Assembly (NCBI RefSeq): GCF_004010195.1
Contig: NC_057718.1
Span: 72,530,626-72,594,625, forward strand
Origin: Chiloscyllium plagiosum
Taxonomy: Eukaryota
Direction of reading: 5' to 3'
Length of the DNA stretch: 64,000 bases
The notes below the pieces were generated by a model, which had not been told where the DNA came from, made no database searches, and saw only the letters and a program-made list of their open reading frames with translations. Position 1 is the first letter of the stretch. Every line of letters begins with the position of its first letter. The translations under genes and the position numbers were made by a program. This document shows positions 1,735 through 56,540 of the stretch, piece by piece.

Positions 1735-1774
1735 GCACTGATGATGTCGCCTAGCCAGGGGACGAAACGTTTGC
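1735..1774 (+). ncRNA. Minimal type-I hammerhead ribozyme motif (PLE terminal repeat)
   Basis: GCA-CTGATGA-T-GTCGCCT agcc AGGGGAC-GAAAC-GTT-TGC: stem I GCA/TGC, stem II hairpin, ACGT palindromic stem III, GUU triplet. Confidence 0.7.
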
Positions 1775-2958
1775 AACAAAAACTTCCAGCTCGGCGAACA
1801 GAACCACAGCAACGAGCACCCGAGCTACAAATCTTCGCACAAACTTTGAATTCAATAGTGTTGCTTGCAAGTTAAAGTACAAGGAAATAAATGTGAATTA
1901 TTTTCCATTATCCCAAGATGAATCACACTCCTGTGATCTATTAATTTAATGCTCCAAAGTAAGTAATTTATTCATTTAACTGAAGTGAGAGAGAAAATGG
2001 GAATGACTAGATGAATGGACTGAATGACCTCATTTTGTGCAATAATGACTCTATCCTAAATGCTCTGGCATTCAGGTATCAGCATTTGATAAAGTCTCTA
2101 CTGTTTATTTTATTTCCACATTTGTTTATTTATCTGGATTAAAATATATTGCTCTCACTTTCTATTTGACCTTCTTGACATCTAATTTTCAAGTTGACTA
2201 CTCCTTCCCTCCCTCTTTATTAATTAGTCTATTCAATCCTGCTTGGTTGAGACGCAGCACATATTAAATTCATCAAACTGGTTTACCAACCCCACTCTCC
2301 CAACCAAAAAAACTTTCCCATCAATTTGGCTGGCACATCACACCCTGAAAATGGTATTTCATTCGGTATGCTCTTCTGACGAAGATTAGCAATAAACCAG
2401 AAAAGAAACTTCAGTGTGCCTTTCAATTTTCAATGCCAAGTCAACTAGTTGGTTATCTTCTCCAGAGTCGTTTCCTCTAGAAGGGTAGTGATTAGAAGTG
2501 ACAGCTCAATTGGGAATGGACATTTGTGTGAAAATATCATTACAACCATAACTGTCCCAGTAAGTTTCATTCTTAAATCTCAATTCTTCTTCTTATACCT
2601 CAAGCAATTCTCTCTCCAGGACCTGATGTAGTTCTAAAACTTGCTTCAACGGGTGTTCTGGTAGATGTATTGAATAAATTTAATTAGTCTTTTGTTAGAA
2701 TAAATTGATGTGTTTTCTTTCCATCTTATTCCCAGCTTTCTGAGTTTTAAACTGTTTCTTGGAATTTCAAGGGAACAATCTACTGGAACTAATGGTATCA
2801 AGGTACCTTCATAGGTTGAAAAAACATTTCCTCGACCACACCATCCAACTCAATCCACTTTCACATTCATCCTACTTGGAATACTTTTGGTAATCAGAGA
2901 ACAGAGTTGGTTTTTCTGGAATATTAAGAAATAAACTGCAATCTATATAGGGACTTAC

Positions 2959-3108
2959 TGACTAACGCATGACGCATCCATATGGAAGAAGTTAGGGTCC
3001 ATAAACAGATCAAATGCTTCTTTTTTCCAAGCTCGCCTTGTATACTGGTAGCCACTCAGACTGCTTACCAATTGGACACATGCTCGGTAACTTGGGGCAT
3101 TGTGAGCA
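2959..3108 (-). CDS. DOP1A: DOP1A coding exon (150 nt, phase 2/2)
   Basis: ttacttctag|T GCT...AGT CA|gtaagt; [49 protein letters not shown](H). Confidence 0.95.
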
Positions 3109-3539
3109 CTAGAAGTAAATCACAATAGTTTTAGAGCCAGAAGAAAAGCTGAGCAATAGTTTATATTGAATAAAATTGAACACTGTATGTATAAGAAACC
3201 ACAGAAAATAACAAGGATTTCCAACACAGAATCCACAGACCCAGAAGAATCACCAGCTTATAATGCTTTAAGTGCAGTATGTCTTAAAATGTATCAAATT
3301 CGTGTCCAATTGTACAGATTTCAATGCACATTACAAGTGTGAGAAAGTAATCGTTATTGCTGTTCAGGTTCAAGTGAAATATGACAAAAAAAACTGTTTT
3401 GCTCAATAAAAATGAGATGATTACTGAATGCATAAAAACAAAGGACATCTGTACATAAAATAATTAAGCATCTGAATTGTACAAATCAATTTTACAGAAT
3501 ATGTTTTCTACTTAAACTCAGCACCAACTTGCTGGTAGT

Positions 3540-4100
3540 GTGTCCAAGTTTGCAGAAGACAAATAAGGTGAGTGGTAGAGCAAAGCGTTCAGAGGACTGT
3601 GAAACTTTGCAAAGGGACATAGATAGTTGGGACATAGGTAGTTTATGTGAATGGGCAAAGGTCTGGCAGATGGACTACAATGTTAATAAATGTGAAGTCA
3701 TCTGCTTTGGTAGGAATAACAGTAAAAAGGACTATTATTTGAAGGATAGAAAATTGCAACATGCTACAGTGCAGAGAGATAGAAGTAAAGATGATGGGTG
3801 AAACAAGGACAAGAGGGCATAGCCTCAAAAGATTTAGGACTGAATTGAGGAGGAGCTTCTTCATGTAGAGAGTTGTGAAGCCAAGGAATTTCCTGCCCAG
3901 TGAAGTAGTTGAGGCTTCTTCACTAAATGGTTTCAAAGCGAAGACTGATCATTATTTGAACAGTAATGGAATTAAACGTTACAGTGAGAGGGGGGTAAGT
4001 GGAGCTGAGGCCATGAAAAGATCAGCCATGATCTTTTTGAATGGCAGAACACGCTCATAGGGCCAGATGGCCTACTCCTACTCCTAGTTATGTTCTTATG
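3540..4100 (+). mobile_element. CR1 LINE 3' fragment (decayed)
   Basis: LQRDIDS...WAKVWQMDYNVNKCEVICFG; 3' UTR ending tatgttcttatg. Confidence 0.8.
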
Positions 4101-4889
4101 TAAACAAAAAACTTGTAAGGAATATGCAGTCATCTTTCAACTCAGTATTTAACACAGCGACATTTAACTTTATTTTGGAAATTTGTCAGCACATTAGAAC
4201 ATCAACAGACTCGCAGCATAGTTTTGGATTAGCATACAGGTTTGTAACCAATGCATTATGAGTTCTAATCCCCAAATGTACTTTTCGGGTAGCAGTGAGG
4301 CAGTGGATTAGGCTCCCACAGTGTTCTACCTGACTGTACAGCATACCTGGGAACAAACAGGCATTTTGTCCTGCTGGTGTACAAAAAAAGAGACAGGAGA
4401 AAAAAGAAATCTTGTAAACAAAGGTAAAAGGTTTAGCCTCATCCACCCACCTAGCCCGAACAAAAAAATGGGCTTGAAAGACTAGACATAAAAACTGGTT
4501 TAATTCAATGAGAGAATTAGTGAAAACAGAAAATGCTGGAAATAGACAGCAGATCTGATAGCAGCCTTCCAATTTCTTTCTCAGATTCCTCTCAATTCAT
4601 TGATGACCTTTGCGCAGTACTACGAGTTTCTGCCTTGCACCTTCAGGTGGCTGAAATGGAAGATTCTTGACTTGCAGATCTTTGGACATCTGGAACAGGA
4701 CAACTCACAGCTGGAATTCAGCATTTTTTAAAATCCTTCTTTGCTGCCACTTTGAGACCCAAGATTTTAATGCTGGGGCAAAGAATGGAGGAGTTGTCAC
4801 CATTCTGAACAGTCAGTAGCAAGTTCCTCCTTGCCATTAAAGGTCACTGCTGTCACTGTTTGAGGAGAATTTAAGATGGCTTTGAAGCA

Positions 4890-5335
4890 TTTTTATGTTC
4901 TCTCATGGAATATTGTTTTCTAAGAGGTTTTCTGCCATCCACTGACCAATTCATCATAGTTTATGATGCAGCAGTTTTGTCTGGAAGCTTTGCACCTGGT
5001 TTCAGGAATGATGCAAGTATTTACCCAACAGTTCTCCCATTAGGTATGGAGAATTCCGCAGTGGCATAGCTAATCAGATTTCGCTAGTATCCTAATATAT
5101 TACTGATAGACAGTTGCGTTTCTCTGCAGTACACTGCATGAAGACAACTGCTCTGAACACTAAGACATTTGTTTGCTCAATTAAATCTTTACTTTTAATA
5201 CATTTGATGTAGTTTGTTCAAGTTGGAACTGATGCAGCTAATATGCTCAGTGATGGCCTTTGGTGAGAGGCCGTTGGCAAGGTCTGGGAAATGTTCCACA
5301 TACTTCAAAGTCTCTCCAACATAAGAATTGGGAAA
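4890..5335 (-). mobile_element. RTE-clade LINE RT fragment (highly decayed)
   Basis: Minus-strand residual ETLKYVEHFPDL..GLSPKAI..ISC resembles the RTE V..F.YLGS.LS..A.ID.EI..RIS motif. Confidence 0.55.
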
Positions 5336-5747
5336 TGAAATATCAGAATGGCTAGCTGCAGGTTTATCTAATTTTCTTGTTTGGACAGCATTCAGGATTG
5401 GGTCAAGTTTCCTGTATGCATAATTGAATGGTAGTGCAGATCTTACTGATAAAGGACCACTGATATAGAACCCTGGATTTCTCTTTACAGATGCTATCAG
5501 ACGTGACGTATTTATATTGGGTTTTAATTCAGATTTCCGGCATCAAAGAACTATGCTTTGGAATAAAATCTGTTTGTTAAACTGATAAATGAACAGTTAC
5601 AGTCATGAATTGCAAATATTAGGCTGGAAAACCAAAAGGTACACAGAATTGAAATTCAGTAATAATGACAGTCCAGCACAAGGCAAATTAGTCTTACAAA
5701 TGGTACATGAGGAATAAAACCATAACTGTACTCTAAAGTAGAGGTAC

Positions 5748-5857
5748 CTGTGATTGCGTAGATAGGGAACAACATAGTACATAATGTTAACAAGTAATGG
5801 GATAACTTTTTCCTTTTCTTCACTGTGAAATACCATGTCGAAAAGGTGAGCTAAAAC
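5748..5857 (-). CDS. DOP1A: DOP1A coding exon (110 nt, phase 0/2)
   Basis: ctgtcttttag|GTT...CAC AG|gtacct; [36 protein letters not shown](S). Confidence 0.95.
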
Positions 5858-7957
5858 CTAAAAGACAGCAGAAAATGCATACTTTACATACAGCACACTG
5901 TAATAGGTATTCAATAATATGTTTTGTGTTGGTATTGTATAACAAAGAGTTATGGCAACAAAAAAGAGAAATTAATGGAGAACTGAAACTGTTCAGTGGA
6001 CCAGAAACATTGACTCTGCTTTCTCTCCCCGATGCTGCCAGACCTGCTGAGATATTCTAGCAATTTTTGTTTTTTCTTCAAATTTCCAGCATACACAGTT
6101 GCAGAGTCATAGAGATGTCATTGGTTAGGCCACTTTTGAAATATTGCGTGCAATTCTGGTCTCCTTCCTATCAGAAGGATGTTATGAAACTTGAAAGGTT
6201 CAGAGTCATAGCGAAGTGCAGCATGGAAACAGACCCTTCAGTCCAACTCATCCATGCTGACCAGGTATCCTAAACTAATCTAGTGCCATTTGCCAGCAGT
6301 TGGCCAATATCCCTCCAAAGCTTTCCTATTCATGTACCCATCCAGATGCCTTTTACATGCTGTAATTGTACCAGCCACCACCACTTCCTCTGGCAGCTCA
6401 TTCCATACACACACCACTCTCTGCAGGAACAAGTTTCCCCTTAGGTGTCTTTTATACCCTTCCCCTCTCACCCTAAACCTATGCCCTCTACTTCTGGACT
6501 CCCCCACTCCAGGGAAAAGACCTTGTCTATTTATCCTATCCATGACCCTCATGATTTTATAAACTTCTATAAGGACACACCTCAGCCTCCACTCCAGGGA
6601 AAACAGCCTCAGCCTATTCTGCCTCTCCCTATAGCTCAAATCCTCCAACCCTGGCAACATCCTTGTTAATCTTTTCTGAACGCTTTCATGTTTCACAATA
6701 TCCTTCTGATAAGAAGGAGACCAGAATTGTACGCAATATTCCAAAAGTGGCCGAACCAATGACCTTCCAACTCATATTCTTAATGCTCTGACTAATTAAG
6801 GAAAGCATACTAAACACCTTCTTCATTATTCTATCTACCTGCAACTCTACTTTCAAGGAACTACGAACCTGCCCTCCAAGGTCTCTTTGTTCAGCAACAC
6901 TCCCTAGGACCTTACCGTTAAGTATTTAAGTCCTGCTGTGATTTGCTTTTCCAAAATGCACCACCTTGCATTTATGTAAATTAAATTCTATCTGCTAATC
7001 CTCCGGCCCTTGGCCCATCTGATCAAGATCCTGTTATATTCTGAGGTAACCTTCTTCACTGTCCACTACACCTCCAATTTTGGTGTCATCTGCAAACTTA
7101 CTAATTATACCACCTAATTATTTATATCAATGATAAAAAGCAGTGGACTCAGCATCGATCCTTGTGGCACTCCACTGGTCACAGGCCTCCAGTCTGAAAA
7201 ACAACCCTCCACCACCACCCTCTGTCTTCTACCTTTGAGCCAGTTCTGTATCCAAATGGCTAGTTCTCCCTATATTCCATGAGATCTAACCTTGCTAACC
7301 AGTCTACAATGAGGAACCTTGTTGAACGCCTTACTGAAATCCAGATAGGACACATCCACTGCTCTGCCCTCATCAATCCTCTTTGTTACTTCTTCAAAAA
7401 CTCAAGCAAGTTTGTGAGACATGATTTCCCACGCAGAAAGCCATGCTGGCTATTCTTAATCAGTCCTTACCTTTCCATACATGTGTAAATCCTGTCCCTC
7501 AGGATTCCCTCTAACAACCTGCCCACTACAGATGTCAGACTCACTGGTCTATAGTTCCCTGGCTTTTCCTTACCACCTTTCTTAAATAGTGGCACCATGT
7601 TAACCAACCTCCAGTCTTTCGACTCCTCACCTGTGACTATCGATAATACAAATAGCAAGGGGTCGAGCACACAGCTCGATCCCTTGCTCCCACACAGTTC
7701 TAGGGTACACCTGATTGGGTCAGAGGGATGTATCCACTATTATGCATTTCAAGACATCCAGCACCTCCTCCTCTGTAATTTGGACATTTTTTAAGATATC
7801 ACAATTTATTCCCCCAAATTCTATATCTTCCATGTTCTTCTCCACAGTAAACACTGATGCAAAATACTCATTTTGTATCTTCCCATCCACTGCGGCTCCG
7901 CACATAGGCTGCCTTGCTGGTCTTTGAGGGACCCTTCACTCTAACAGGAATGTAACA

Positions 7958-8197
7958 GGGGTGGCATGGTGGCTCAGTGGTTAGCACTGCTGCCTCACAG
8001 CACCAGGGTCCCAGGTTCGATTTCCTCCCACAGTTTAAAGATGTGCAGGTGAGGTGAATTGGCCATGCTAAATTGCCAGTAGCGTTAGGTGCATTAGTCA
8101 GAGGGAAATGGGAATGGGTGAGTTACTCTTTGGAGGGTCAGCGTGGAATTGTTGGGCCAAAGGACCTGTTTCCACACTGTAGGGAATCTAATCTAAT
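7958..8197 (+). mobile_element. HE1-type tRNA-derived V-SINE, internally deleted, nested in CR1 A
   Basis: A box TGGCTCAGTGG, B box GGTTCGATT, LINE-like 3' end and aatcta tail. Confidence 0.85.
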
Positions 8198-8591
8198 ATA
8201 TTTTCTCTGGACTTTTGTTATGTCATTTCTGAAGGCTTCCCATTTTCCAGCTGCCCCTTTACATGCGAACATCCGCCCCAAATCAGTTTTTGGAAGTTCT
8301 TGCCCGATACCGTCAAAATTAGCCTTCCTCCAATTTAGAACTTCAACTTTTAGATCCAGTCTATCCTTTTCCATCACTATTTTAAGACTAATACAATTAC
8401 GGTGGCTGGCCCCAAAGTGCACCCCCACTGATGCTTCAGTAACCTGCTTTGCTTTATTTCCTAAGCGTAGGTAAGATTTTGCACCTTCTCTAGTAGGAAC
8501 ATCTACATACTGAATCAGGAATTTTTCTTGTGCACACTGAGGAACTTCCTCTCCATCTCAATCATTAACACTATGGCAGTCCCAGTCTATG

Positions 8592-8729
8592 GAGAAAGTG
8601 AGGTCTGATAGAAAAGCACAGCAGGTCAGGTAGCATCTGAGAAGCAGGGTCCTGATGAAGGGCTCTGGCCTGAAACATCGATTCTCCTGCTCCTCGGATG
8701 CTGCCTGACCTGCTGTACTTTTCCAGACA
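8592..8729. mobile_element. Short PLE terminal insertion (inverted arms) with degenerate hammerhead, 9-bp TSD
   Basis: TSD CAGTCTATG at 8583-8591 and 8730-8738; CTGATGA AGGGC tctg GCCT GAAAC ATC at 8652-8679. Confidence 0.8.
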
Positions 8730-8976
8730 CAGTCTATGTTCGTAAAATTAAAATCCCCTACCATAATCACCCTATTATTCTTAGAGATAACTGAAATCTC
8801 CTTATAAATTTCTTTCTGAATTTCCCACTGAGTATTAGGGGGTCTATAATACAATCCCAAGAAGGTGACCATCCCTTTCTTATTTCTCAGTTCTACCCAA
8901 ATAACTTCCCTGAATGTATTCCCAGGAATATCCACCCTAAGTACAGCTGTAATGCCATCCCTTACCAAAAACACCA

Positions 8977-11900
8977 AAGAACAAATAAAATTTACAGCCC
9001 AGGAACAGGCCCTTTGGCCCAAGCCGATCCAAATGTACTGTCTAAACCTGTCGGTCAATTCCTAAGCATTTGTATCCCTCTGCTTTCCACCTACTCATGC
9101 ATCTGTCCAGACGCATCTTAAATGAATCCACTGTGCCTGCCTCTACCAGCTCTGCTGGCAACGCGTTCCAAACGCCCACCACCCTGTGTGAAATACTTGC
9201 CGCGTGTATCCCCCTTAAACTTTCCACCTCTCACTTTTAAAGCATGACCTCTGGTTATTGAATCCTTCACCCTGGGAAAAAACTTGTCTCTATCAACCCT
9301 GTCTATACCCTTCATGATTTTGTAAACCTCAATCAGGTTCTCCCTCAATCTTCTTTTTTCTAGTGAAAATAAACCTAACCTACTCAACCTCTCTTCATAG
9401 CTAGCACCTTCCATACCAGGCAACATCCTCGTAAACCTTCTCTGCACCCTCTCCAAAACGTCCACATCCTTTTGGTAATGTGGCAACTAGAACTGTACAC
9501 ATATTCCAAATGCGGCCAAACCAATGTCTTGTACAATTTTAATATGACTTGCCGGCTCTTATGCACAACACCCCATCCAATGAAGGCAAGCATATTATAT
9601 GCCTTCTTGACCACTCTATCCACCTGTGCAGCAACCTTCAGGGTACAATGGACCTGCACTCCCAGTTCACTCTGCCCATCAACTTTTCCCAAGGCTCTTC
9701 TGTTCATTGTATAATTCGCTCTAGAATTAGACTTGCCTAAATGCATGACCTCACATTTGTCTGGATTGAAAGCCATCTGCCACTTTTTCGCCCAACTCTC
9801 CAGTCTATCTATATCTTCCTGTTTTCTCTGATAGTCCCTTATGCTTTCTGCTACTCCACCAATCTTTGGGTCACCTGCAAACTTGCTGATCATACCAACA
9901 GCGCCCTCTTCCAGATCATTTATGTATATTACGAACAACAGTGGCCCCAACATTGACCCCTGTGGAACATTTCGAGAAACTCCCTTCAACTACTACTCTG
10001 TAACCTGTTGCTCAACCAGTTCTTTATCCACCTAGCTAGAAAGATGGGGTACTGGGCTAATGGTCGGATACTTGGTAGTGTGGATGAGCAGAGAGATCTT
10101 GGTGTCCATGTACACAGATCTTTGAAAGTTGCCACCCAGGTAAATAGTGCAGTGAAGAAGGCATATGGCTTACTGGCTTTTATTGGTAGAGGAATTGAGT
10201 TCCGGAGTCCTGAGGTCATGTTGCAGTTGTATAAGACTCTGGTGCAGCCGCATCTGGAGTATTGTGTGCAGTTTTGGTCGCCATACTATAGGAAGGATGT
10301 GGAGGCACTGGAACGGGTGCAGAGGAGGTTTACCAGGATGTTGCCTGGTATGGTAGGAAGATCGTATGAGGAAAGGCTGAGGCACTTGGGGTTGTTTTCA
10401 TTGGAGAAAAGAAGGTTTAGGGGTGACTTGATAGAGGTGTACAAGATGATTAGGGGTTTAGATAGGGTTGACCGTGAGAACCTTTTTCCACGTATGGAGT
10501 CAGCTATTACGAGGGGGCATAGCTTTAAATTAAGGGGTGGTAGATATAGGACAGATGTTAGGGGTAGATTCTTTACTCAGCGAGTCGTGAGTTCATGGAA
10601 TGCCCTGCCAATAGCAGTGGTGGACTCTCCCTCTTTATGGGCATTTAAGCAGGCATTGGATAGACATATGGAGGATAGTGGGCTAGTGTAGGTTAGGTGG
10701 GCTTGGATCGGCGCAACATCGAGGGCCGAAGGGCCTGTACTGCGCTGTATTCTTCTATGTTCTATGTAACACCCTGCACACCATGTGACTTCACTTTCTC
10801 CATTAGTCTACAATGGGGAACCTTACTAAAGTCCGTGTATATGACATCAACAACCCTTCCTTCATCTAACAACTTGGTCACTTCCAGAACTCTATTAAGT
10901 TGGTAAGGCATGATCTCCCCTGCACAAAACCATGTTGCCTATCACTGATACGCTCATTCTTTTTGAAATATAAATAGATCCTACCTCTTTGTACCCTCTC
11001 CAGCAACTTCCCCACCATCGATGTGAGGCTCACTGGTCTGTAGTTACCCAGAATATCCCTACTACCCTTCTTGTATAGGGGGACAACATAAGCTACCGTC
11101 CAGGCCTCCGGCACCTCACCTGTATTTAAGGATGCCACAAAGATATCTATCAGGGCCCCAGCTATTTCCTCTCTCTCGCCTCCCTCTGCAACCTGGGATA
11201 GATCCCATCCGGTCCTGGGGATGTGTCCACCTTAATAGCCTCTAGCATACCAACACATCTTCCCTACTTATGCCAACGTGATCCAGACTAATCAAACTTC
11301 TATCTCTAATCTCAAGATTCATCATGTTCATCATGCTTCCCTTTTCCTCTTGGCTAGTTGTACAATTTCTCCTGTCATCCACAGTTCACGAATCTTTCCC
11401 TTCCTATCCTTTGCCTTCAATGGGACATGCCTATCCTGCACTACCGGTAACCTATCTTTGAAAGCCTCCCACATCTCAAATGTGGACTTCCCTTCAAATA
11501 GCTGTGTCCAATCCACATTTCCCAGCTCCTGAGTAATTTTGATATAATTGGCCTTGGCCCAGTTTAATATTCTTACCTTAAGACCACTCTCTTCTTTATC
11601 TACGAGTATTCTAAAACTTACAGAATTGTGGTCACTGTTCCCAAAGAAATCCCCCACTGCAACGTCTACCACTTGTCCTGGCTCATTCCCCAGTACCAGG
11701 TCCAATATGGCCCCTTCCCTCATCGGACTATTGACAAACCGCTCTAGAAAACTCTTCTGGACGCCTCGGACAAATTCTACTCCATCCAGACCTCTGACGC
11801 TAAGTGTATCCCAGTCAATGTTGGGAAAATTAAAATCTCCCATTACCACTACCCTATTGCCTCTGCATCTATTCATAATCTGTTTACCTATTTGTTCTTC

Positions 11901-24427: not shown

Positions 24428-24554
24428 CTAGCACATCAAAGACATAAGCAGGCTTTAAATGTCACTTACTAATGTAATATTGATGCGACAAGATTGATTT
24501 ATCATTAACTAATTGGGTTCTCAAAGTAGATTTATCAAATATAGCTAGCTTTAC

Positions 24555-40220: not shown

Positions 40221-40224
40221 GTCA

Positions 40225-40397: not shown

Positions 40398-40409
40398 ATG
40401 GAGTCATGA

Positions 40410-41378: not shown

Positions 41379-41499
41379 TTGCCTGGTCGCCATGAAGGAG
41401 GTGGACCAAAGGGTCTGTTTCCACGATCTGCGATGGCAGGATTCAAAACCAGGGCCCCCAGAACATTAGCTGAATTTCTAGAATGATGATAGCATCCCC

Positions 41500-45515: not shown

Positions 45516-45571
45516 CTTTGGATATACGCATAGAAAAACTGCAACATACAAACTTCTTCTGGAACTTGCTT
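45516..45571 (-). CDS. DOP1A: DOP1A coding exon (56 nt, phase 0/2)
   Basis: ttttatgtttcag|AAG...CAA AG|gtaatg; KQVPEEVCMLQFFYAYIQ(R). Confidence 0.93.
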
Positions 45572-45934
45572 CTGAAACATAAAACAGATACAAGGCAAAT
45601 TGCTTAACTATATGTAGAATTTTCTTGCAATTTAGTTAATAAGTAGCCGTTAGTCATTGGCTGCCACATGCCTTCACTATATATTTTTCTTTAATTATAG
45701 GACTGAAGCAGTCCATGGCCAAATGTAGCAAGACCTGGACAATATCCAGGCTGAAAAGTGACAAGTAACATTTGCACCACACAAATGCCAGGCAGTGACC
45801 ATCTCCTTAGAGGCAATCTAACCATTATCTCTTGACATTCAATGATGCTTTCATCGCTGAATTCCCCAGCATCCTGTGATTGTTATTGACCAGAAAGTGA
45901 ACTGGACTAATCACATAAATAAAAGGTCATAGCT

Positions 45935-46150
45935 CCACAGTTACCATAGTCCCTGAGGACCATAGGGTTGTTCTCTTATTACAAAATGATGACTGGTTAA
46001 CCTGGAAGGTCATCACACCTCAAGCAAATGGAAAAGGTGAGAAGGCAGACCTTCATGGTAACCTCTGCCAGTGTGGGAGTTGACCCTGCACAGTTGGTGT
46101 CATTCTGCATCTGTCAACCAGTTGTCTAGCCAATTGAGCTAACTAAACCC
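45935..46150 (-). mobile_element. Second tRNA-derived SINE family (non-HE1)
   Basis: Minus strand GGGTTTAGTTAGCTCAATTGG (A box)...GGGTCAACTCCC (B box). Confidence 0.6.
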
Positions 46151-46626
46151 AACAGCCACATCAATACAGTTGCTACAAGAACAGGTCAGAGGCTAGGAAA
46201 ATTGCAACAAGTAACTCACTTCTTCACTTCCCAAAGCCTGTCTATCATCTACAAGGCGCAAGTTAGGTGAATACTCCCCAGCAGCCTGGATGAGTGCAGT
46301 TTAAACAACACTCAAGAAGCTTGACACTATTCAAGACAAAGCAGTCCACTCTGTTAGCAATGCATCTACAAATACCCATTCTCTGCCCCACCGAAGTTCA
46401 GGAGCAGCATTGTGTACCATCTACAAGATGTACCATAGAAATTCATTAAAGATTCTTACGCAGCACTGTCCAAACCCATGGTAACCACAGTAAATACACA
46501 GGGCAACAGATACATGGGAACATCACCACTTGCAAATTCCACCCCATGCCCTCACCATCCTGTCTTGGAAATACAATGCCACTCTTTCAGTGTCATTAGC
46601 TCAAAACTTGGCCAATGTGCCACCGT

Positions 46627-46941
46627 GGGCGTCACGGTGGCACAGTGGTTAGCACTGCTGCCTCACAGCGCCAGAGACCCGGGTTCAATTCCCGCCTCAG
46701 GCGACTGACAGTGTGGAGTTTGCATGTTCTCCCCGTGTCTGCGTGGGTTTCCTCCGAGTGCTCCGGTTTTCTCCCACAGTCCAAAGATGTGCGGGTCAGG
46801 TGAATTGGCCATGCTAAATTGCCCATAGTGTTAGGTAAGGGGTAAATGTAGGGGTATGGGTGGGTTGTGCTTCGGCGGGGCGGTGTGGACTTGTTGGGCC
46901 GAAGGGCCTGTTTCCACACTAAGTATCTAATCTAATCTAAT
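46627..46941 (+). mobile_element. HE1 V-SINE with inverted 5' duplication
   Basis: Full body plus tctaa tail; 46612-46627 is an inverted copy of 46633-46648. Confidence 0.9.
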
Positions 46942-48007
46942 TTAAAAAAACTCCTGGAATTCCGTCCTGAATGGCATTGTAGGTCCACATATAGCAAATA
47001 ATCTATTCCACCCAAGGAAACAAAGCTTATTCCAATGGTATTCCTTCATCCAAAACTTACATACCACCCTGAAAGATCCTACCAAAAAAAATTAAGGACC
47101 ACTACTAGGAGCTAAACTGGGAAATTACTGCTAATATACACATTAAGAAGCGCACAAAATAAGCTGGAAAATACTACAGATGCGGGAAATATTAAATTAA
47201 AGCCTAAACTATTTGGCAGGTCAGGTAGTACCTGTGGATAGAGATAAACAATTAACCAGTTGGAGCATATGTCCCACCAAGACTGGCATCGAAGCTGGGA
47301 AGAGACTAAAATTAGTCTCCTCAGTTGGTTTGTTGGTTCTGTCCAACCTCTGCGTGATTTCTGAAGTAAAAAGGGAAGGGGTGATAGGGAAGGGTTAACT
47401 GCCTGCATGCAGGTAGCTCATTAATAACTGCTGAAGGCCAATTAAATGTTGTAGGAGATACTGGTTTAGATGCCTGGAATTCACAGAAGCACCACTTCAG
47501 ATAGGCGAAGATCATGCCCTTTCTGTCTTGATGCAAAAGCAGCTAGAGGTTGCATTCAGGGGTGGCCTCATTACAAAAGTAATGTTTAAAAGGGATTTTA
47601 AGAAGTTACAAATTGAGAGCTTCCATTTTGAAGTACTATTTCTCTTTCATATGGTTATTGCTCCTAACAGGGTTGAGAAGATCTCCAGCATTATGAGTCT
47701 GCCTCCCACATTTAGTTAGACAGTAAGCAGTCACTAGAACCCTGTAGACATCACAATCAGTGTTTCCTCCTGGGGGCTGCAATGGGATGAATTCCATAGG
47801 AAGTTACTATTTCCCATCCTAGAAGCATTGTAACAGTGATCATGTGACCCATTCAAGTCACAAAGGCTCTCTTCCAGAGCAATCCAGTCAGTCTTATTCC
47901 CTTGTTCTATCTTTATGGATATGTTTCTCTCAAATGTCCATCCAATTTCCTTTTAAAAATCATTGCTCATCTCCACTTCCATTATCTTTGCAGACAACAG
48001 GTCAATT

Positions 48008-49381
48008 AGTGGTGGGCAGGTTGTTGGAGGGAATCCTGAGGGACAGGATTTACGTGTATTTAGAAAGGCAAGGACTGATTAAGGATAGTCAACATAGCTT
48101 TGTGCATGGGAAATCATGTCTCGCTAACTTGATTCAGTTTTTTTTAAAGAATCAGGAGTTGTATGAATAGTAACAAAGAGGACTGATGAGGGAACAGCGG
48201 TGGATGCAATCTATATGGACTTCAGTAAGGCGTTTGACAAGGTTCCTCGTGGTAGACTGGTTAGCAAGGTTAGATCACATGAATACAGAGACAACTAGCC
48301 ATTTGGATACAGAACAGGCTCAAAGGTAGAAGACTGAGGGTGGTGACGGAGGATCACTTTTCAGACTGGAGGCCTGTGACCAGTGGAGTGCCACAAGGCT
48401 CAGTGCTAGGTCCAATGCTTTTCATCATTTATATGAACGATTTGGATGTGAACATAGGAGGTATAGCTAGTAAGTTTGCAGATCACACCAATATTGGAGA
48501 TGTAAAGGATAGTGAAGAGGGTTTCCTCAGAATGCAACGGGATCTTGATCAGATGGGCCAATGAGCTGAGGAGGGGTAGATGGAGTTTTATTTAGATAAA
48601 TGTGAGGTGCTGCAGTTTAGAAAGGCTATTCAGGGCAGGACTTATACACTTAATGGTAAGGTCCTGGGGAGTATTGCTGAATAAAGAGACCTTGGAGAGC
48701 AGGTTCATAGTGCCTTGAAAGTGGAGTCGCAGGTAGATAGGATAGGGAAAGCGTCATTTGGTATGCGTGCTCTTATTGGTCAGTGCACTGAGTAAAGGGG
48801 TTGTGGCTGTACAGAGCATTGGTTGGGCCACTTATGGAATAGTGTGTGTAATTCTGGTCTCTTTGCTATTAGAAGGATATTATGAAACATGAAAGGGATC
48901 AGTAAATATTTACAAGGATTTTGCCAGGATTGGAGGGTTTGAGCTAAAGGATGAGGCTGAGTAGGCTGATGCTGTTTTCTCTGGAGCGTGGAGACTGACG
49001 GGTGACCTTATAGAGGGTTATGAAATCATGAGGTGCATGAATAGGGTAAACAGACAAGGCTTTTTCCCTGGGGTGAGGGAGAGCAGAAGTAAGGAGCATA
49101 GGTTTAGGGTGAGAGGAGAAGGATTTAAAAGATCCCTAAGGGGCAACATTTTCATGTAGAGGATAGTGTGTGCGTATGGAATGAGCTGCCAGAGGAAGTG
49201 ATGGAGGCTGGTACAAATATAACATTTAAAAGACATCTGGATGGATATACGAATAAGAAGGGCTTACAGGGATATGGGCCAAGTGCTGGCATATGTGACT
49301 AGATTAATTTAGGCTATCTGGTCAGCATGGATGCGTTGGACCGAAGGGTCTGTTTTGTGCTGTACATCTCTGTGACTCTAT
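48008..49381 (+). mobile_element. HER1/CR1 RT + 3' UTR, 5'-truncated
   Basis: [24 protein letters not shown]...KFADHT; tail ctctgtgactcta. Confidence 0.85.
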
Positions 49382-49908
49382 TAGCACTCACTGAAACAAA
49401 AACACTCTTCTTCACATTCCTCCTGCATCACTTCCCCAAGATCTTAAAACTGTGTCACTAATCCTTATACCATCAGCTAACTGGAATAGTTTTTCTTTGG
49501 CAGGTCTAAATGAAAGAAACAAAGGCGGGCACACGAGTATTAAATCTCCCCTAAATATTTGTTCCAAGTAGATCAACCACAGGATTCCAACTGAACCACG
49601 TTTTTAAAATCCCTCATTCCTTGGACTATTCTTTCATAATGCTCCTTGGGTGCTGCCTGACCGGCTGTGCTTTTCCAGCACCACCACTTTTTGAAGGCGA
49701 ATATAGAAGCTGATCAGTGGCAAATGGAATTCAATCTGGATAATTGTGAGGGGATGCACTTGGGCGAGACAAACATGGCAAGGGAATACATGACCAACAG
49801 CAAAATCCTGAGAAGCACCGAGGATCAGAGGGACCACAACTAGATGAAGTGGTTAAGGTGGCAGATGGGAGTTCTGTGTGGTTCTGGAATCCACATTATA
49901 GAACAGAT

Positions 49909-51755
49909 GTGGTTGGAAGTTTATTTGCTGAGTTGGTAGATTTGTTCTCAGACATTTCTCAGAAAAAGAACCAGAAGAGATATCACCCACCACAATAGCC
50001 CAAGACACATAAATAGAAAGCAGGATAGAAAACCAGCGCTTTATCAGAGGCTCACTGATGACATTACCTAGCATGGTGAAGAAACATCCGAGAACAAATC
50101 TACCAGATCAGTAAGCAAACTTACAACCACATCTGTTCTACAATGTGGATTCCAGAACGACACAGAACTCCCATTTGCCACCTTAACCACTTCATCCAGT
50201 TGTGGTCCCTCTGATCCTCGGTGCTTCAATCTGTGCTACAAATCTTATTTAAAATCACAAACTCTTATGGGCGCAATATGCTCAAATTAGCCCAAAGATG
50301 GGAAACCAATACCATCTGACTGAGTGCCACCTACCAACAACTGTGCTTCCTACACAAATGCCTCAGGAAACAGGTACTACCACGATGTATCAAATACAAA
50401 CCATCTCTCAACTCGCCACAATCTAGAAGAACATCAGAACAGAATGGCTGCAGGATGCTACAATAAATGATGAATGATAACCACAATCAACTCCACAAAT
50501 GAACCAGGGATTTGATGCCAAATAACTCTGTACTCTAATGCAGCTGGCCATGAAAGGACAAGTATGTTAAAACCCCACGAGCCATCAACACTAAACGACA
50601 GCCAAACTCTCAATACACGGACAATTCAGAAACTTGGATAAAGAATGTGTCAGACTGACCACTCTCAGACACGGAAAAACCTGTCTTAGTACAAGGGATG
50701 AATTTCAACCACATGGACAAAAAGGACTTCCTAGCAGCACTGGAATCCACCCTGAAAGACAATGGACTTACGGATGAAATCCAGCAGGCCATAAGACAGA
50801 CAATAGCACTAACACTAAGCACAAAGAAAAAGGTGAACACACTGGAAAACTCTGGAAGGAGTCAGAAAAGACAGAAATATCATAATCCTAGCAGCAGGCA
50901 AAGGATGCATGACCATCATCCTGAAAGAACAAAGATTGAAAAAGCAAAAACACTACTCGCAGACACTGACAGATGGCGATGGACCTGACTCCATGGTTAG
51001 AAAAGCATATTATAGCAAACCCTGAGGAAACCTCACAAAATAGGTGAAATTAACAAGACAGACCTCCAAAGAATGAAACCTGAAGGATCCAACACACCCA
51101 GTTTCTACAAATTACCCCACTTGCTGCCCCACCCCCCCACACCCCCCAAGACCTGTAGCCTCATTTCCTAGTGCACCGACATACAGACTAGCAAAGGAAC
51201 TGCAATGCAAACTGAAACACCTAGTAAAAGACTCAAGCCATTCCACCCAGGAATTCCTTGACATCACCAAAGACACCAAGGTGTCTTTGTGAAGACCTGA
51301 TTCACATTAATAAACATCACTATAGCCAAAGAAACACAAGGACACAAACACCTGAGAGTACCAACTCCATCAGCAAGGACAGCATCTCAAATTAGTAGAC
51401 CTGTGCCTTACAACTCATTCCACCTTCAACGACAAGACCTACAAACAAATCAATGGAACACCCATGGGAATCACCAATATCAGGACTCTTATCAGAAGCA
51501 GTTATGCAGAGATTAGAATGAATAGCCCTTCCCATGATCCAGCCCATGCTTTGGATCCACTACATGGATGACACCTTTGTCATCACGAAGCGCAATAAAT
51601 TAGAAGAAATTCACAAACACATAAACAACATCCTTACTGGTATAAAGTTTACCAAAGAGGAAGAGGACAACAGACTCCTCTTCCTAGATGTCACAGCAGA
51701 ATGAAAAGCCAATAGAGAGCTGTAGACCAGCGTCTGCAGGAAAGCCACTGTCTCA
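49909..51755 (+). mobile_element. Penelope-like (Poseidon-type) element: terminal repeat with hammerhead, decayed ORF with RT
   Basis: FLHKCLRKQVLP N-terminus, GMNFN, TYKQINGTPMG, WIHYMDDTFV (YMDD at 51561-51572), FLDV; hammerhead-like motif at 50051-50092. Confidence 0.88.
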
Positions 51756-52395
51756 CACAGTCCTACAGATACACACACTCCTACAGACTCATAACACTCA
51801 TGTAGACCCTCTCTCATACACAAGGTCTCTCTCATACGCTCACACACACACACTCCCACACTCCCTCTCACAGGCTTATACCCCTTTAGACTCACTCCTA
51901 ACACCCCACCCCCATGCGCACGCACACACATGCACACACGTTTGTGGGGTGAATTTGTATGTGCAGAATTACATTTTATTTTGCTCAAAAAAAACTGCAT
52001 GAATCCATTCTGTAAATCTATTTTTTTAAGATTAGAATCAGCCTGAACATTGTAGCACAGACAGTCTCACACAGGGCAGCTCTTAATGCGTTATCTGAGA
52101 CGACATGACAATGATTGTTAAGTTCACTTGAGAATGTAACTTTAAAAAGTTCTGCGATTTATATATGAAAGAACTGAAACCAACATGTTCATTCTAAAAA
52201 ACGAGACTCTTAAACAAACCAGATCTTTTTCAATATAAAATTTCAGTCACATCAGACTATAAGCTTTTGCTATAAATTATGTGTCTTATGATTTTATACT
52301 CCAAAACCATCTGATGTAGGAGCAGCGCTTCGAAAGCTAGTGCTTTTAAATAAACCTGTTGGACTATAACCTGGTGTTGTGTGATTTCTAACTTC
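51756..52395 (+). mobile_element. Second PLE family 3' part (CA-rich spacer, hammerhead-bearing end)
   Basis: CAT-CTGATGT-A-GGAGC agc GCTTC-GAAA-GCTA-GTG at 52308-52342, then aataaacctgttggactataacctggtg. Confidence 0.75.
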
Positions 52396-52577
52396 GTGAA
52401 ATGCAGTGACCAGAACTGGATACATTTTAGTTGTGACATAACTAGAGCTTTATCAAGTTCAATATAATTTTTCTTTTATACTGAATGAATCTATTTACAA
52501 TATCTTAGATCTACTGTCCGATTTGCTTTGCAAACAATTCTCTTCCTTGCCACCTTCAAAGATCCAAGCCCATTTTT

Positions 52578-52890
52578 ATTACAGATTAGATTACAGATTA
52601 CATTACAGTGTGGAAACAGGCCCTTCGGCCCAACAAGTCCACACCGCCCCGCCGAAGCGTAACCCCTACCTTTACCCCTTACCTAACACTACGGGCAATT
52701 TAGCATGGCCAATTCACCTGACCTGTACATCTTTGGACTGTGGGAGGAAACCGGAGCACCCGGAGGAAACCCACACAGACACGGGGAGAATGTGAAAACT
52801 CCACACAGTCAGTCGCCTGAGGCGGGAATTGAACCCGGGTCTCCGGCGCTGTGAGGCAGCAGTGCTAACCACTGTGCCACCGTGCCGCCC
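52578..52890 (-). mobile_element. HE1 V-SINE, young
   Basis: Reverse complement of the consensus-like copies. Confidence 0.92.
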
Positions 52891-54682
52891 AAATTCATTA
52901 ATTCATTTTCTATTATATTTACCCCAGTTGAAATTGTTATTTGCATGTCTCTCAGCTTAAACCAATGCTTACATTTAGAGAGAGATGAAAGAGGAGAAAA
53001 ATACCCACTAACTGTTCACTTTTCCACAAGCAAATGCTCGATAATGGTTTTGCAGCCATTCAGAATTCCCCTACATTAAGATTGCCAACCTTTCAGCATG
53101 GGAGGGAGGCATATTTAATTTTTCTTTCACTCAGGGCAGCAGATTTCACGAAGACAGATTCTGTCATAACAATAAACATGAATTGTGGGGAAAACAAGTC
53201 CAAAGCGATAAGTTGATCATTAAAGTTGATCATTAATAAAAGAGACAAACAAAAAACAGCAGAGTCAACTAAGAAAACTTTTTTAAAATGCATTTTTGGT
53301 TCACAGTCAGACAAAGAAAGTAAGTACAACCCAACACCTGGTCAACAGAGAAGAGGGTGGAAACTGGATCTAAGCTCGGGAGATGGGTTTAACTGGGATC
53401 ACCTCTGATGGACACAGTCTGAGCTGGCCTCGATGGAATTCCCCTGAAAAGAAATTTCCTTCCAAAATGAATTTTCCTCCTCATCAGCTTCATAGAAGCA
53501 GGAAGATGAGGGCTCGAGTGCGCGGGAGTTCAGCTGAATTCAACAAATACTGTACACCCTCCCACGGACCTACTCACTCATATCCTCTATTCTCTAACAC
53601 TCTCAGCCTGGGAGGTTTACCAATGAATATCACTGAGGAGTACTAAAAGTGTCTTTCAAGGTACCAACATACCAACCCACAGCTTCTCCTGATTGCCATT
53701 GTTTCTATCATGCCCCAACCTCAGCTGAGGAAGTGCTCTGATTTTCATTTACCCCCAGCAAGCCCACCTGCCAGACAGTAGCCAGACTCTCACTTCCCAG
53801 CCTGCAGCAGGAGCTAGACGCTTGTTCTAACCCCCCACATCCTTCATTAGATAATGGTGGTGTCCCAACTCTAACCCAGCAGACAGCAGTTTCCCACCAG
53901 CATTTGAACAATGGCTAGTCAGGGCAATTTGTAGTTGCAGGTGCCTGTTGATCAAGCCTGCTCTGGATGCCTCTTATCCTTTCCACCCACACACTCCACT
54001 TTACCTGTCTCGGTATTTGATTAAAATCTTTTAAATTTGCAACATCTTCCATTTCTGACAAAAGATCGAGTAAAACATTAATTGCATTTGTCATTTTCAT
54101 AAATGCTGTCTGAATTGCTGGGGATTTAAATCATTTTTTAAAAACAGATAAAGTTGGTTTCAGAATTGTTCTGAAAGTAGGAATTTATAGTTGAATACAG
54201 ACTATTAGAAGTATCTTGAGGCACTTTATAAATAAGCTTTGGGAAATGGATGAGAGGCAAAGAGCAAGAATAATTGTGATAGGATTGAAATATTCAAATG
54301 AAGAACCCAGGTGAAAAATTTGAGAATGATTTGTGACCAAACAAAGGAAACAATGATAGACTTGAAATGCAAACTGTTTCTTTCTTTACAGATGCTATGT
54401 GACCTGCTGGGTATAGCCAGCATTTTTCTATCTTTTGACATTATGCATGATGTATGTTGCACAATTTATGAATAAGTATCTGACAGGGAGAAGGATGAAA
54501 AATAATGGACTTCCGTCAAAAATTGGGATTGATGTAAGTTATTAAAAAAATCTTTAATGGAAATTAGCAAGAGTACAAGAGTCCTTGATAAGCCCAAAAG
54601 AGAGAAATAATTCATTTGGAATTCAATGAAAAGTTTGCACACTATGGTATGTCACTTAAACTTTATAGGGGATATTATGGCC

Positions 54683-55008
54683 ATTAGATTAGATTAGATT
54701 AGATTACTTACAGTGTGGAAACAGGCCCTTCGGCCCAACAAGTCCATACCGACCCGCCAAAGCGCAACCCACCCATACCCCTACATTTACCCCTTTTAAC
54801 CTAACACTACGGGCAATTTAGCATGGCCAATTCACCTGACCTGCACATCTTTGGACTGTGGGAGGAAACCGGAGCACCCGGAGGAAACCCACGCAGACAC
54901 GGGGAGAATGTGCAAACTCCACACAGTCAGTCGCCTGAGTCGGGAATTGAACCCGGGTCTCTGGCGCTGTGAGGCAGCAGTGCTAACCACTGTGCCACCG
55001 TGCCGCCC
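54683..55008 (-). mobile_element. HE1 V-SINE, young
   Basis: Full body with (TTAGA)n tail. Confidence 0.92.
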
Positions 55009-55239
55009 ACACTACCATCTTGTAACAGATGGTAGTTGTGTCATTATAAGTTGACAAAATGCATATGGAAATCACAGAAATATAACATGTTATTGCATGA
55101 GATGGCTATCGGTTTTGGCTGTGACTAGTTTCTGATTAACATTAAACATGATAAAAAGTGAATAAATTAGATGTAATCAGCAATAAAGTAAAATAGTAAT
55201 CAAACAGTATCAACTCTTTAAAATCAATATTCAACGTAC

Positions 55240-55374
55240 CTTTTCCTTGGTTGAAGGTGGAGGCTGTTTTAACACTTCTTTCACTGTCTGTATAACAGTT
55301 TCAACCCTCATTACGCTAATGGAGCGCACTAGTTCCACCAACAACAACTGCTCAGGACAGGGTACAGGAATAAC
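55240..55374 (-). CDS. DOP1A: DOP1A coding exon (135 nt, phase 0/0)
   Basis: tttgaag|GTT...AAG|gtacgt; VIPVPCPEQLLLVELVRSISVMRVETVIQTVKEVLKQPPPSTKEK. Confidence 0.95.
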
Positions 55375-55501
55375 CTTCAAATATTAATATTACAATTTAT
55401 TTAATCTTGAAATTCTCTTACATGAATCAGTCTTATAGAAAACCAATCACAAAAGTGATGAAATGACAGCCACCCAATCAAAGGAATGGCACTTGCTGAT
55501 T

Positions 55502-55712
55502 TAAACGTGTGGTCCTGAAAAAGCACAGCTTGTCAGGCATGATCCAAGGAACAGGAGAATCAATGTTTTGAGCATAAGCCCTTCATCATGATGAAGAGCT
55601 TATGCTCGAAACGTCGACTCTCCTGCTTCCCAGATGCTACCTAACCTACTGTGCTTTTCCAGCGCCACACTTTTTGACTCTGATCACCAGCATGTGCAGT
55701 CCTCTCTTCCTC
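55502..55712. mobile_element. Head-to-head PLE terminal fragments forming a palindrome centred on the hammerhead core
   Basis: Centre CTTCATCA|TGATGAAG at 55581-55596; right arm GAGC ttat GCTC GAAAC GTC. Confidence 0.78.
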
Positions 55713-56440
55713 TTTGCTGATTTAGTGTGCCAAGGAACCTGGAAGTGGATTTATAAAGTGCTCAGACTTAGAATTATAGAATGATATACCACAGCGATGG
55801 TCACTTGGACCATCATGTCAAGTACTTCGTAGTTGAAATGAAATCAGAAAAATATCTGGATCAAAGCAACATTACAGACTGAGAAAGCAATGTCAGTGGC
55901 CATCACTTGGAAATGTATAAAGAATTAATGATTGGCATGCATTTTAACGCTTGCATGACAAGGTTCTCATTGTTTGAATCAGTTAAGTAAAACGAAAAAA
56001 GGAAAATTTCATCTTAGTGATAATAATTTAAATTTTTCACTGATGGGTTTGGTTCTTATTTATAACTGTTCCTATTTAAAGGTGGTGTGTGAGGCAAGTT
56101 GATGTGACACAAAGGGTGCTTGGCACATGCTGCCAGGGGAGGTGGTAGAAGCAGATAAAGTTTAAGAGATATTTAGAAGACACATGAACAGGCGAATAAG
56201 AGAGGAATACAGACCATGATTGGCGCAGACACGGTGGGCCAAAGAGTTTGTTCCCGCGCTGTACTATTCTATGAATACAGACGGACCGGTTTAGATGAAC
56301 TCAAATTGGAAAATAGATTTTAAATTATCATGTGACCACATGTATTTTTCAACTAGACATCAGTGGATGTTTGTTTGCTATTGCCCTGTTTTCTTAAGAG
56401 TTCAAAAAGGTCAATGCACTATTTTTGCACTATTTTAAAT

Positions 56441-56540
56441 GTTCTGAAGAAAGTACTAGACCAGAAATGTTAACTCTGCTTTATCTCCATAAATGCTGCC
56501 AGGCCTGCTGAGTTTTTCCAATAATTTCTGTTTTTGGTTT
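56441..56540 (+). mobile_element. PLE terminal fragment with degenerate hammerhead
   Basis: GTT-CTGAAGA...GAAAT-GTT-AAC then atgctgccaggcctgctgag. Confidence 0.65.

What the first reader, a model, noticed from the sequence alone, without database searches (positions are those of the whole stretch)
1735..56474. Dispersed set of about 11 minimal hammerhead ribozyme motifs from several PLE terminal-repeat families in DOP1A introns
Seen: repeated stem I - CTGANGA - stem II hairpin - GAAA - palindromic stem III - NUH - stem I' at 1735(+), 8649(+), 20511(-), 22322(-), 26802(-), 27105(+), 27959(+), 40464(+), 50051(+), 52308(+), 55589(+, core C lost) and 56441(+). Stem I and II sequences differ between families (GCA/TGC, ATTC/GAAT, AGCT/AGCT, CAT/GTG, GTT/AAC) while pairing is kept, i.e. 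covariation around a fixed core. Established: Penelope-like elements carry minimal type-I hammerheads whose loopless palindromic helix III favours dimeric folding. Inference: most copies are 100-250 bp tails with no ORF, so they may be a non-autonomous, ribozyme-terminated short retroelement system mobilised by PLE RT.
Basis: partly seen in the sequence, partly recalled or inferred. Interest (0 to 1): 0.75.

Follow-up and report, generated by a model that had tools for sequence, protein, structure and literature searches.

The report
Penelope retroelement ends carrying hammerhead ribozymes
These motifs are the already described tiny hammerhead ribozymes at the ends of Penelope-type jumping genes, lying here at ordinary genome-wide density, and the short copies are likely dead by-products made when the element's enzyme ran off the front of its own uncut RNA, not a separate mobile element.

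Summary
The motifs are real, but the kind is known. All 12 sites carry a minimal type-I hammerhead fold in 10 separate insertions. Five keep an intact core (one is the U3-A8 variant); seven are damaged. They lie in DOP1A introns, mostly antisense, at genome-background density (0.30 vs 0.29 arms per kb).

Each family lies downstream of a Penelope-like ORF (Neptune/Nematis-type or Poseidon-type), shown directly for two families and by divergent hits for three. Copies show the known tails, head-to-head arms and target duplications.

A separate non-autonomous family is not supported: short and long copies intermingle on a tree (51 label changes vs 50.7 shuffled). Truncation is not random either. 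Of 411 Neptune-type arms, 201 start at -19..+6 of the core, about 30 nt below a TATA-like box, and only 5 start at -35..-20. There is no peak at the ribozyme cut site.

Best reading: the short copies are run-off cDNAs from internally primed, uncleaved PLE mRNA. The start site is inferred; no RNA evidence was obtained. Poseidon-type copies mostly truncate at random. This scan noted the same pattern before on other DNA of this and other shark-type genomes.

The parts
1093..1853 (+). Scrambled, 5'-truncated Poseidon-type PLE insertion (family C): ORF piece 1153-1430 (+), inverted ORF pieces 1093-1149 and 1694-1729, N gap 1431-1693; intact min-HHR 1735-1774 with long tail
   Evidence: 93-97% identity to ORF-bearing loci L315, L318, L322; no convincing TSD
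8592..8729 (+). Head-to-head family A insertion; min-HHR 8649-8682 (stem III damaged), partial inverted arm 8611-8648; TSD 8583-8591/8730-8738
20417..20554 (-). Solo short family A copy starting at the ribozyme edge; min-HHR 20510-20545 (G12>A); long tail; 11-bp TSD 20406-20416/20555-20565
22228..22361 (-). Solo short family B copy; min-HHR 22322-22357 (G8>A, stem III damaged); 11-bp TSD with one mismatch 22217-22227/22362-22372
26745..28089 (.). One young Neptune/Nematis-type insertion (family A1): inverted short-tail arm 26743-26999 with intact HHR 26802-26837 (-), ORF fragment 26998-27046, intact HHR 27105-27140 (+), N gap 27181-27748, ORF end and pLTR 27751-28087 with intact HHR 27959-27994 (+) and long tail; 15-bp TSD 26730-26744/28090-28104
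40395..40562 (+). Family E copy keeping the TATA box (40430); min-HHR 40464-40502 with U3-A8 core variant
   Evidence: no TSD found
49812..51750 (+). Decayed long Poseidon-type copy: inverted arm 49812-49959, damaged min-HHR 50051-50092 in the 5' pLTR, running on into a broken ORF from the N-terminus through the RT motifs
51766..52400 (+). Family D copy with long 3' UTR and TATA box; min-HHR 52308-52342 (A9>T; GC stem III); short tail; 5' boundary approximate
55504..55713 (.). Head-to-head family A insertion joined at the ribozyme edge; + arm min-HHR 55585-55618 (C3>A); 11-bp TSD 55493-55503/55714-55724
56441..56545 (+). Solo short family B copy; min-HHR 56441-56474 (stem II broken); possible 16-bp TSD with two mismatches
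597..59024 (-). Host gene DOP1A, ten 3' exons; all the insertions lie in its introns

Best explanation
The motifs are the minimal hammerheads of the terminal repeats of several Penelope-like retrotransposon families, and the short copies are likely run-off cDNAs made when the element's reverse transcriptase primed internally at a tail site on uncut mRNA and reached the predicted transcription start at the ribozyme's front edge. Shown here: link to PLE ORFs, two fixed 3' ends, target duplications, clustered 5' ends, no separate short lineage. Established elsewhere: internal RT initiation at two sites on unprocessed RNA (anole Poseidon element, in vitro). Inferred: (1) a TATA-like box drives a start about 30 nt downstream, at the first base of stem I; (2) priming at the tail sites near the mRNA's 5' end yields a 95-130 nt cDNA that is inserted without the promoter, so it is a dead end; (3) head-to-head units arise from two priming events, one on each cut strand, using the long and the short tail site. 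Single copies would not self-cleave without a partner, and an effect on DOP1A is unlikely.
For: ORF link: the 27959-28087 segment is 100% identical to the stretch 175 nt after a 749-aa RT + C-x4-C-x2-C linker + GIY-YIG frame in L303; family C follows 470-aa and 379-aa RT/GIY-YIG frames in L315 and L322. Same-strand divergent Neptune-like hits lie upstream of long copies: B 5 of 16, D 3 of 19, E 1 of 3, F 3 of 4 (two further B hits were inverted and three further D hits belong to neighbouring elements). 5' ends: of 411 arms in 140 loci, 201 start at -19..+6, 5 at -35..-20, 101 further upstream, 104 further downstream. In solo copies base conservation stops at -4 in families A, B and E; D extends further (26 of 74 profile starts at -14..-6). 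The TATA-like box lies at about -36, -32, -35 to -38 and -40 in A, B, E and D (read from profile consensus), i.e. 28-34 nt above the boundary. The boundary reads TCATTC or TCAGTT (initiator consensus recalled). Cut site: 14 ends within 3 nt vs 62 in the flanking 28 nt, p=0.68. Tree of 110 short and 62 long A arms: 51 label changes vs mean 50.7 (range 44-59) in 200 shuffles. Head-to-head pairs: 72 of 87 have exactly one long tail; 47 of 87 have a TSD vs 0 of 87 mismatched-flank controls. Literature: PMC11167929, PMC4209133, PMC3846280 (TATA + Inr in a rotifer pLTR).
Against: No transcript 5' end was observed. In A, B and E the predicted start coincides with the 5' edge of stem I, so only family D (small, blurred by inverted arms) separates 'start site' from 'structure edge'. 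An extra G expected from a cap is only suggestive: 12 of 36 solo copies vs 2 of 36 at a control position, but p=0.29 against a composition-corrected expectation. Poseidon-type family C does not show the pattern clearly: 47 tail-selected arms spread from -600 to +31, with 3 at the predicted -24..-22 and others at -2..0. D. virilis Penelope has a TATA-less internal promoter (PMC2377424 passages). Profile boundaries are uncertain by several bases. The tree uses 86 nt, so its resolution is low. No complete element with a 5' pLTR joined to an intact ORF was seen for the Neptune-type families.
Confidence: 0.6

Rival explanations
1. The copies are PLE ends, but the 5' cluster arises because RT stalls, dissociates or switches template as it leaves the hammerhead fold (or at a splice-related boundary) on a longer RNA, not at a transcription start.
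For: The boundary equals the first base of stem I in A, B and E. In D. virilis an intron ends at the 5' end of helix I (PMC4209133). Family B has a pyrimidine tract and CAG at this point. Family C has some ends at -2..0 and a junction class near -7, far from its TATA+30 position.
Against: RT usually pauses on entering a helix from its 3' side, not after copying it (established knowledge). Family D ends lie at about -8 or beyond, upstream of its 3-bp stem I. Family A has no AG at the boundary. Solo copies share no upstream exon.
Confidence: 0.2
2. Short RNAs are made from many promoter-keeping truncated or solo pLTR copies and are mobilised in trans by PLE protein, so the short copies are non-autonomous offspring, though not a self-renewing family.
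For: 101 of 411 arms extend beyond -35 and so can keep the TATA-like box; the tail sites that RT needs lie within the pLTR (PMC11167929); trans-mobilisation by pLTR sequences is reported in a rotifer (PMC3846280 passages). This shares the start-site step with the best explanation.
Against: It is not needed to explain any feature seen. LINE-type cis preference (recalled) would favour the coding mRNA, though this is untested for PLEs.
Confidence: 0.12
3. One reading: a distinct non-autonomous, ribozyme-terminated short retroelement (SINE- or retrozyme-like) that renews itself.
For: Short units of similar length with their own TSDs are very numerous; PLE-derived non-autonomous retrozymes are proposed for vertebrates including one chondrichthyan (bioRxiv 10.64898/2026.07.22.740005).
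Against: No separate clade; no better core conservation in short copies; no ends at the cut site; tandem arrangement is rare (5 tandem vs 51 head-to-head relations among 223 arms); short copies lack the upstream box.
Confidence: 0.05
4. Ordinary random 5' truncation of PLEs for all families.
For: It fits Poseidon-type family C and the longer Neptune-type copies.
Against: In family A the per-base chance of ending is about 0.03 at -19..+3, about 0.004 in most other bins (0.010-0.011 in two) and zero at -30..-20 (129 arms); pooled 201 vs 5.
Confidence: 0.03

Closest known systems
[quoted passage not shown]
   Same: Type I, loopless palindromic helix III, extra base between A9 and G10.1, many covarying families per genome, U3-A8 variant, mostly single dispersed motifs attributed to truncated PLEs, opposite-strand pairs 100-700 bp apart.
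   Different: No shark appears in the parts read. Extrapolated number here is far higher (about 2e5 core-intact motifs vs about 4,000 and 9,000 in coelacanth and Xenopus, by a different descriptor). The paper does not report clustered 5' ends in the parts read.
Endonuclease-positive PLE insertion structures: pLTR, inverted copy, 30-40 bp tail at one end (Craig 2021 PMC8557442, passages; Arkhipova 2013 PMC3846280, passages)
   Same: Head-to-head inverted arms, tail on one end, TSDs, TATA + initiator in the pLTR, Zn-finger-like linker in Neptune/Nematis.
   Different: Here about half of the arms consist only of the start-to-tail segment; solo pLTRs in the rotifer passages lacked TSDs and were put down to recombination or deletion.
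Anole Poseidon element PAc, Frangieh 2024 (PMC11167929; parts 1-2 of 4 read)
   Same: Two internal RT start sites that define the tail; both strands cut and extended; uncleaved RNA is the main template; protein-assisted hammerhead.
   Different: That work is in vitro on a Poseidon element; the 5' pile-up here is strongest in Neptune-type families and weak in the Poseidon-type one.
Non-LTR retrozymes (Cervera and de la Pena 2020, PMC7229834, passages; Li 2026 bioRxiv 10.64898/2026.07.22.740005, parts 1-3 of 5)
   Same: Non-coding, type I hammerhead, pLTR-related, a few hundred bases.
   Different: Retrozymes are tandem repeats processed to monomers and circles at the ribozyme; these copies are dispersed solos or head-to-head pairs bounded by start edge and tail, not by the cut site.

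Membership tests
PLE minimal type-I hammerhead | Core C3-U4-G5-A6-N7-G8-A9 / G12-A13-A14 (or U3-A8) with A15.1-U16.1 and NUH | tested here: met
   5 of 12 window sites intact, 7 damaged; 83 hits in 1.35 Mb vs 1-3 simulated
PLE minimal type-I hammerhead | Loopless palindromic helix III, unpaired base before helix II, G10.1-C11.1 | tested here: met
   CG 66 / GC 17 of 83; closing pair G-C 63, G-T 19 of 83, G being fixed by the descriptor
PLE minimal type-I hammerhead | Helix I pairing kept by covariation between families | tested here: met
   positions 1-2 paired in 72 and 74 of 83 with three or more pair types; position 3 in 36 of 83; 4 of 7 recurrent types fully paired vs 1.2 shuffled, 38 of 5000
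PLE minimal type-I hammerhead | Self-cleavage as a dimer | not testable with these tools
   The double-hammerhead fold scores about the same as two monomers and worse than the dimer MFE for 4 of 4 motifs; no activity data
Endonuclease-positive PLE | Single ORF with RT and C-terminal GIY-YIG upstream of the pLTR | tested here: met
   L303/L304 for A; L315/L322 for C; divergent same-strand hits for B, D, E, F
Endonuclease-positive PLE | Optional 30-40 bp tail at one end; inverted copies; TSD | tested here: met
   72 of 87 pairs with one long tail; TSD in 47 of 87 vs 0 of 87 controls
Neptune/Nematis clade (families A, B, D, E, F) | CX2-5CxxC linker between RT and EN | tested here: met
   present in the family A frame, absent in family C; not read separately for B, D, E, F
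Neptune vs Nematis; Penelope/Poseidon (family C, 50051) | Placement in an RT phylogeny with reference elements | not tested
   clade names rest on presence or absence of the linker only
Non-LTR retrozyme | Tandem repeats with a hammerhead in each unit | tested here: not met
   no hammerhead tandem array in the window; 5 tandem vs 51 head-to-head relations among 223 arms; one tandem pair across an N gap at 27105/27959
Non-LTR retrozyme | Unit ends set by ribozyme cleavage; circular RNA | tested here: not met
   no excess of ends at the cut site, 14 vs 62, p=0.68; circular RNA itself not testable here
Non-autonomous SINE-like family | Own lineage and own internal promoter | tested here: not met
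   51 vs 50.7 label changes; short copies start below the TATA-like box; an internal promoter was not assayed

The most novel reading that the evidence does not exclude
Hundreds of thousands of short insertions in this genome are the PLE counterpart of retroviral strong-stop DNA: start-to-tail cDNAs written into the genome. They would map the start sites of several PLE families to the first base of the hammerhead, show in vivo that the copied RNA is uncut and internally primed, and, with the one-long-one-short tail rule, record double priming by a dimeric enzyme.
Probability: 0.5. Interest if true: 0.6.

Novelty: new member of a known kind. Interest (0 to 1): 0.38.

Why it matters
As a ribozyme finding it is ordinary: dispersed minimal hammerheads from truncated PLEs were described in 2014, and this window is typical of its genome. 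The value lies in the ends. How PLEs copy themselves, and what their hammerhead does, are open questions. If the run-off reading holds, genomic copies give a large in vivo record that the template is not cut by the ribozyme, that the ribozyme is the first ~35 bases of the mRNA, and that inverted insertions are primed twice. Each point can be tested with 5' RACE and the published in vitro system.

Tried and rejected
First descriptor without the extra base before stem II: no strict hit; it was mis-specified and corrected. Rfam: no hammerhead match. Pfam scan of 150 stop-free segments, chosen from 285 listed plus one added: no DOP1 or PLE family; DOP1A was confirmed instead. Enrichment in DOP1A: rejected. 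Peak of ends at the cut site: 7 of 129 at +28..+31 in the first sample, but only 1 more in 60 further loci and no excess pooled. A fixed palindromic element for family C, suggested: an effect of the query, which included the junction; tail-only selection shows varied junctions. Cap-derived G: inconclusive. Partner-arm identity as a test of a shared template: uninformative, because best-of-many comparison favours young copies (3 of 45). Tail-only search for family A1 returned nothing, common words being skipped. Sequencing runs: no RNA holder listed; 2,143 reads from about 2% of RNA run X24 lay on both strands with no start pile-up at the predicted site; the library cannot map starts, so this is no evidence either way. 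Dimer energies: neutral. Literature searches that found no description of start-clustered or strong-stop-like PLE copies: Penelope-like + strong-stop, Penelope-like + twin priming, Penelope + solo pLTR, Penelope + shark + Neptune + retrotransposon, Penelope + elasmobranch + transposable element; all seen as listings only. Repbase/Dfam and subscription journals were not searchable.


Full report
Observation. All 12 sites hold the described motif, with one extra base between A9 and stem II and a loopless ACGU or AGCU stem III. A strict scan finds 4, against 0 in each of 20 simulated sequences. The other seven have core or stem damage. Three motifs (26802, 27105, 27959) lie within one 15-bp target duplication, so there are 10 insertions; clear duplications also bound 8649, 20511, 22322 and 55589. 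The window is G000:C9:72530626-72594625 of a 3.56 Gb genome. It holds ten minus-strand DOP1A exons. A cartilaginous fish is inferred from the DOP1A match; the tRNA-head SINE in the window resembles shark HE1 (recalled). Nine of the 12 motifs are antisense to DOP1A. The only intact sense copy (26802) is predicted to pair almost fully with the neighbouring inverted arm.

Is it special? No. Queries taken from the window and one sampled locus find 19 arms in 63,169 window bases and 223 in 763,756 bases of 80 loci taken at round coordinates on the large contigs. In 140 such loci (1,346,965 bases) a core-only descriptor finds 83 motifs against 1, 1 and 3 in simulations, 30 of them with three paired stem I positions. 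If the sample is representative, the genome has roughly a million arms and about 2e5 core-intact motifs; this is an extrapolation. Covariation is real at stem I positions 1 and 2 (72 and 74 of 83 paired), at stem III (CG 66, GC 17) and in the core (4 U3-A8 hits, of which up to 1-3 could be chance). The commonest subfamily carries a T-T mismatch at stem I position 3 (39 of 83).

What they belong to. Family A (8649, 20511, 26743-28087, 55589) follows an ORF with RT, a C-x4-C-x2-C linker and GIY-YIG: the 27959-28087 segment is identical to the stretch after a 749-aa frame in L303. The linker marks Neptune/Nematis (PMC8557442 passages). Family C (1735) follows a linker-less RT/GIY-YIG frame (L315, L322), so it is Poseidon-type; 50051 is an older such copy whose 5' pLTR runs into a broken ORF. 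Families B (22322, 56441), D (52308), E (40464) and F (not in the window) have divergent same-strand Neptune-like hits upstream in 5 of 16, 3 of 19, 1 of 3 and 3 of 4 long copies (two inverted B hits and three D hits from neighbouring elements left out). The 3' ends fall at two sites about 35 nt apart. Of 87 head-to-head pairs, 72 have exactly one long tail, and 47 have a target duplication against 0 of 87 controls. These are the known PLE features (PMC8557442; PMC3846280; PMC8969392; passages read).

Is there a non-autonomous family? On a tree of the shared 86 nt, 110 short and 62 long family A arms show 51 label changes; 200 shuffles give 44-59, mean 50.7. Best identity of short copies to long copies equals that to other short copies (0.904 both). 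The core is intact in 31 of 110 short and 20 of 62 long arms. Tandem relations are rare (5 vs 51 head-to-head). Ends at the predicted cut site are not in excess (14 within 3 nt vs 62 in the flanking 28 nt, p=0.68); an early hint did not grow with more loci. A self-renewing, ribozyme-terminated element or a retrozyme (PMC7229834 passages; bioRxiv 10.64898/2026.07.22.740005 parts 1-3 of 5; its supplements were not seen and list one chondrichthyan) is therefore not supported. The short alignment limits the power of the tree.

Why the copies are short. The 5' ends are not random in the Neptune-type families. Among 411 arms reaching at least +60, 201 start at -19..+6 of C3, 5 at -35..-20, 101 further up and 104 further down. 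In solo copies conservation stops at -4 in A (49 copies), B (29) and E (7), and near -8 in D. A TATA-like box lies 28-34 nt above that boundary in each of these families, and the boundary reads like an initiator (consensus recalled; a TATA plus initiator is reported in a rotifer pLTR). Frangieh 2024 (PMC11167929, parts 1-2 of 4; three text supplements searched with no hit; figures not seen) shows that a PLE RT starts internally at the two tail sites, cuts and extends both strands, and uses uncut RNA. An mRNA that starts at stem I has these sites about 95-130 nt from its 5' end, so priming there would give exactly the short copies seen. They lack the box and would be dead ends. Double priming would give the one-long-one-short pairs. 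The start site and the double priming are inferred.

Against this reading. No RNA 5' end was seen (searches are uninformative). In A, B and E the predicted start equals the edge of stem I, so stalling at the fold remains a rival. A cap-derived G is only suggestive (12 of 36 vs 2 of 36 at a control position; p=0.29 against composition). Poseidon-type family C truncates broadly: 47 tail-selected arms span -600 to +31, with 3 at the predicted -24..-22. D. virilis Penelope uses a TATA-less internal promoter (PMC2377424 passages). A complete Neptune-type copy with its 5' pLTR was not examined.

Comparison and verdict. Cervera and de la Pena 2014 (PMC4209133, parts 1-2 of 4) describe these motifs, their families, the U3-A8 variant, single dispersed copies from truncated PLEs and opposite-strand pairs. 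Dimeric, slow cleavage is reviewed in PMC6765202 (passages); Lunse 2017 is known to me only from that review's text and reference list. The finding is a new member of a known kind. The clustered 5' ends did not turn up in five literature searches, but earlier unreviewed notes of this scan reach the same idea on other DNA; my reading was noted, before that look-up. Interest 0.38.

Noticed in passing
window 27105-27994: Two intact sense-to-sense hammerheads 854 nt apart across a 568-N gap, the first below its own TATA-like box; the only place in the window where a cis dimer could form. The two flanks are 96.6% identical over 147 nt, so probably not a scaffolding duplicate.
   Followed up: partly
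window 49812-51750: Decayed Poseidon-type copy with inverted arm, 5' pLTR and most of the ORF through RT; its sequence after +79 differs from the usual tail of that subfamily.
   Followed up: partly
   Followed up: partly
family B and E tails, e.g. window 22290-22320 (-), 40503-40520 (+): Pyrimidine tract plus CAG directly before an ATG that opens a similar short frame (MLPDLL-like) in families A and B; possible splice acceptor or ORF start just after the ribozyme.
   Followed up: no
sampled loci: The commonest family A subfamily has a T-T mismatch at stem I position 3 (39 of 83 motifs), leaving a weak helix I; families B and C have GUU at the cut site.
   Followed up: no
window 7958-8200, 15826-16143, 30477-30796, 31165-31463, 31857-32169, 42059-42360, 44293-44611, 46626-46942, 52583-52894, 54684-55010: About ten copies of a ~300 bp tRNA-head SINE with a (TAATC)n-type end, some 94-97% alike; resembles shark HE1 (recalled).
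   Followed up: no
window 9387-13298 (-) and many shorter pieces: CR1/L2-type LINE fragments with endonuclease and RT frames; a fairly long copy at about 11.3-13.3 kb.
   Followed up: no
L181, L182, L189, L191, L192, L198 and L183, L190, L193: Two head-to-head insertions each present in several loci with the same flanks, mostly on small contigs: segmental or satellite-like duplication after insertion.
   Followed up: no
L304:270-700 (reverse strand): A Neptune-type copy whose 5' part is a tandem array of an ORF segment that keeps one frame open (893 aa in all).
   Followed up: no
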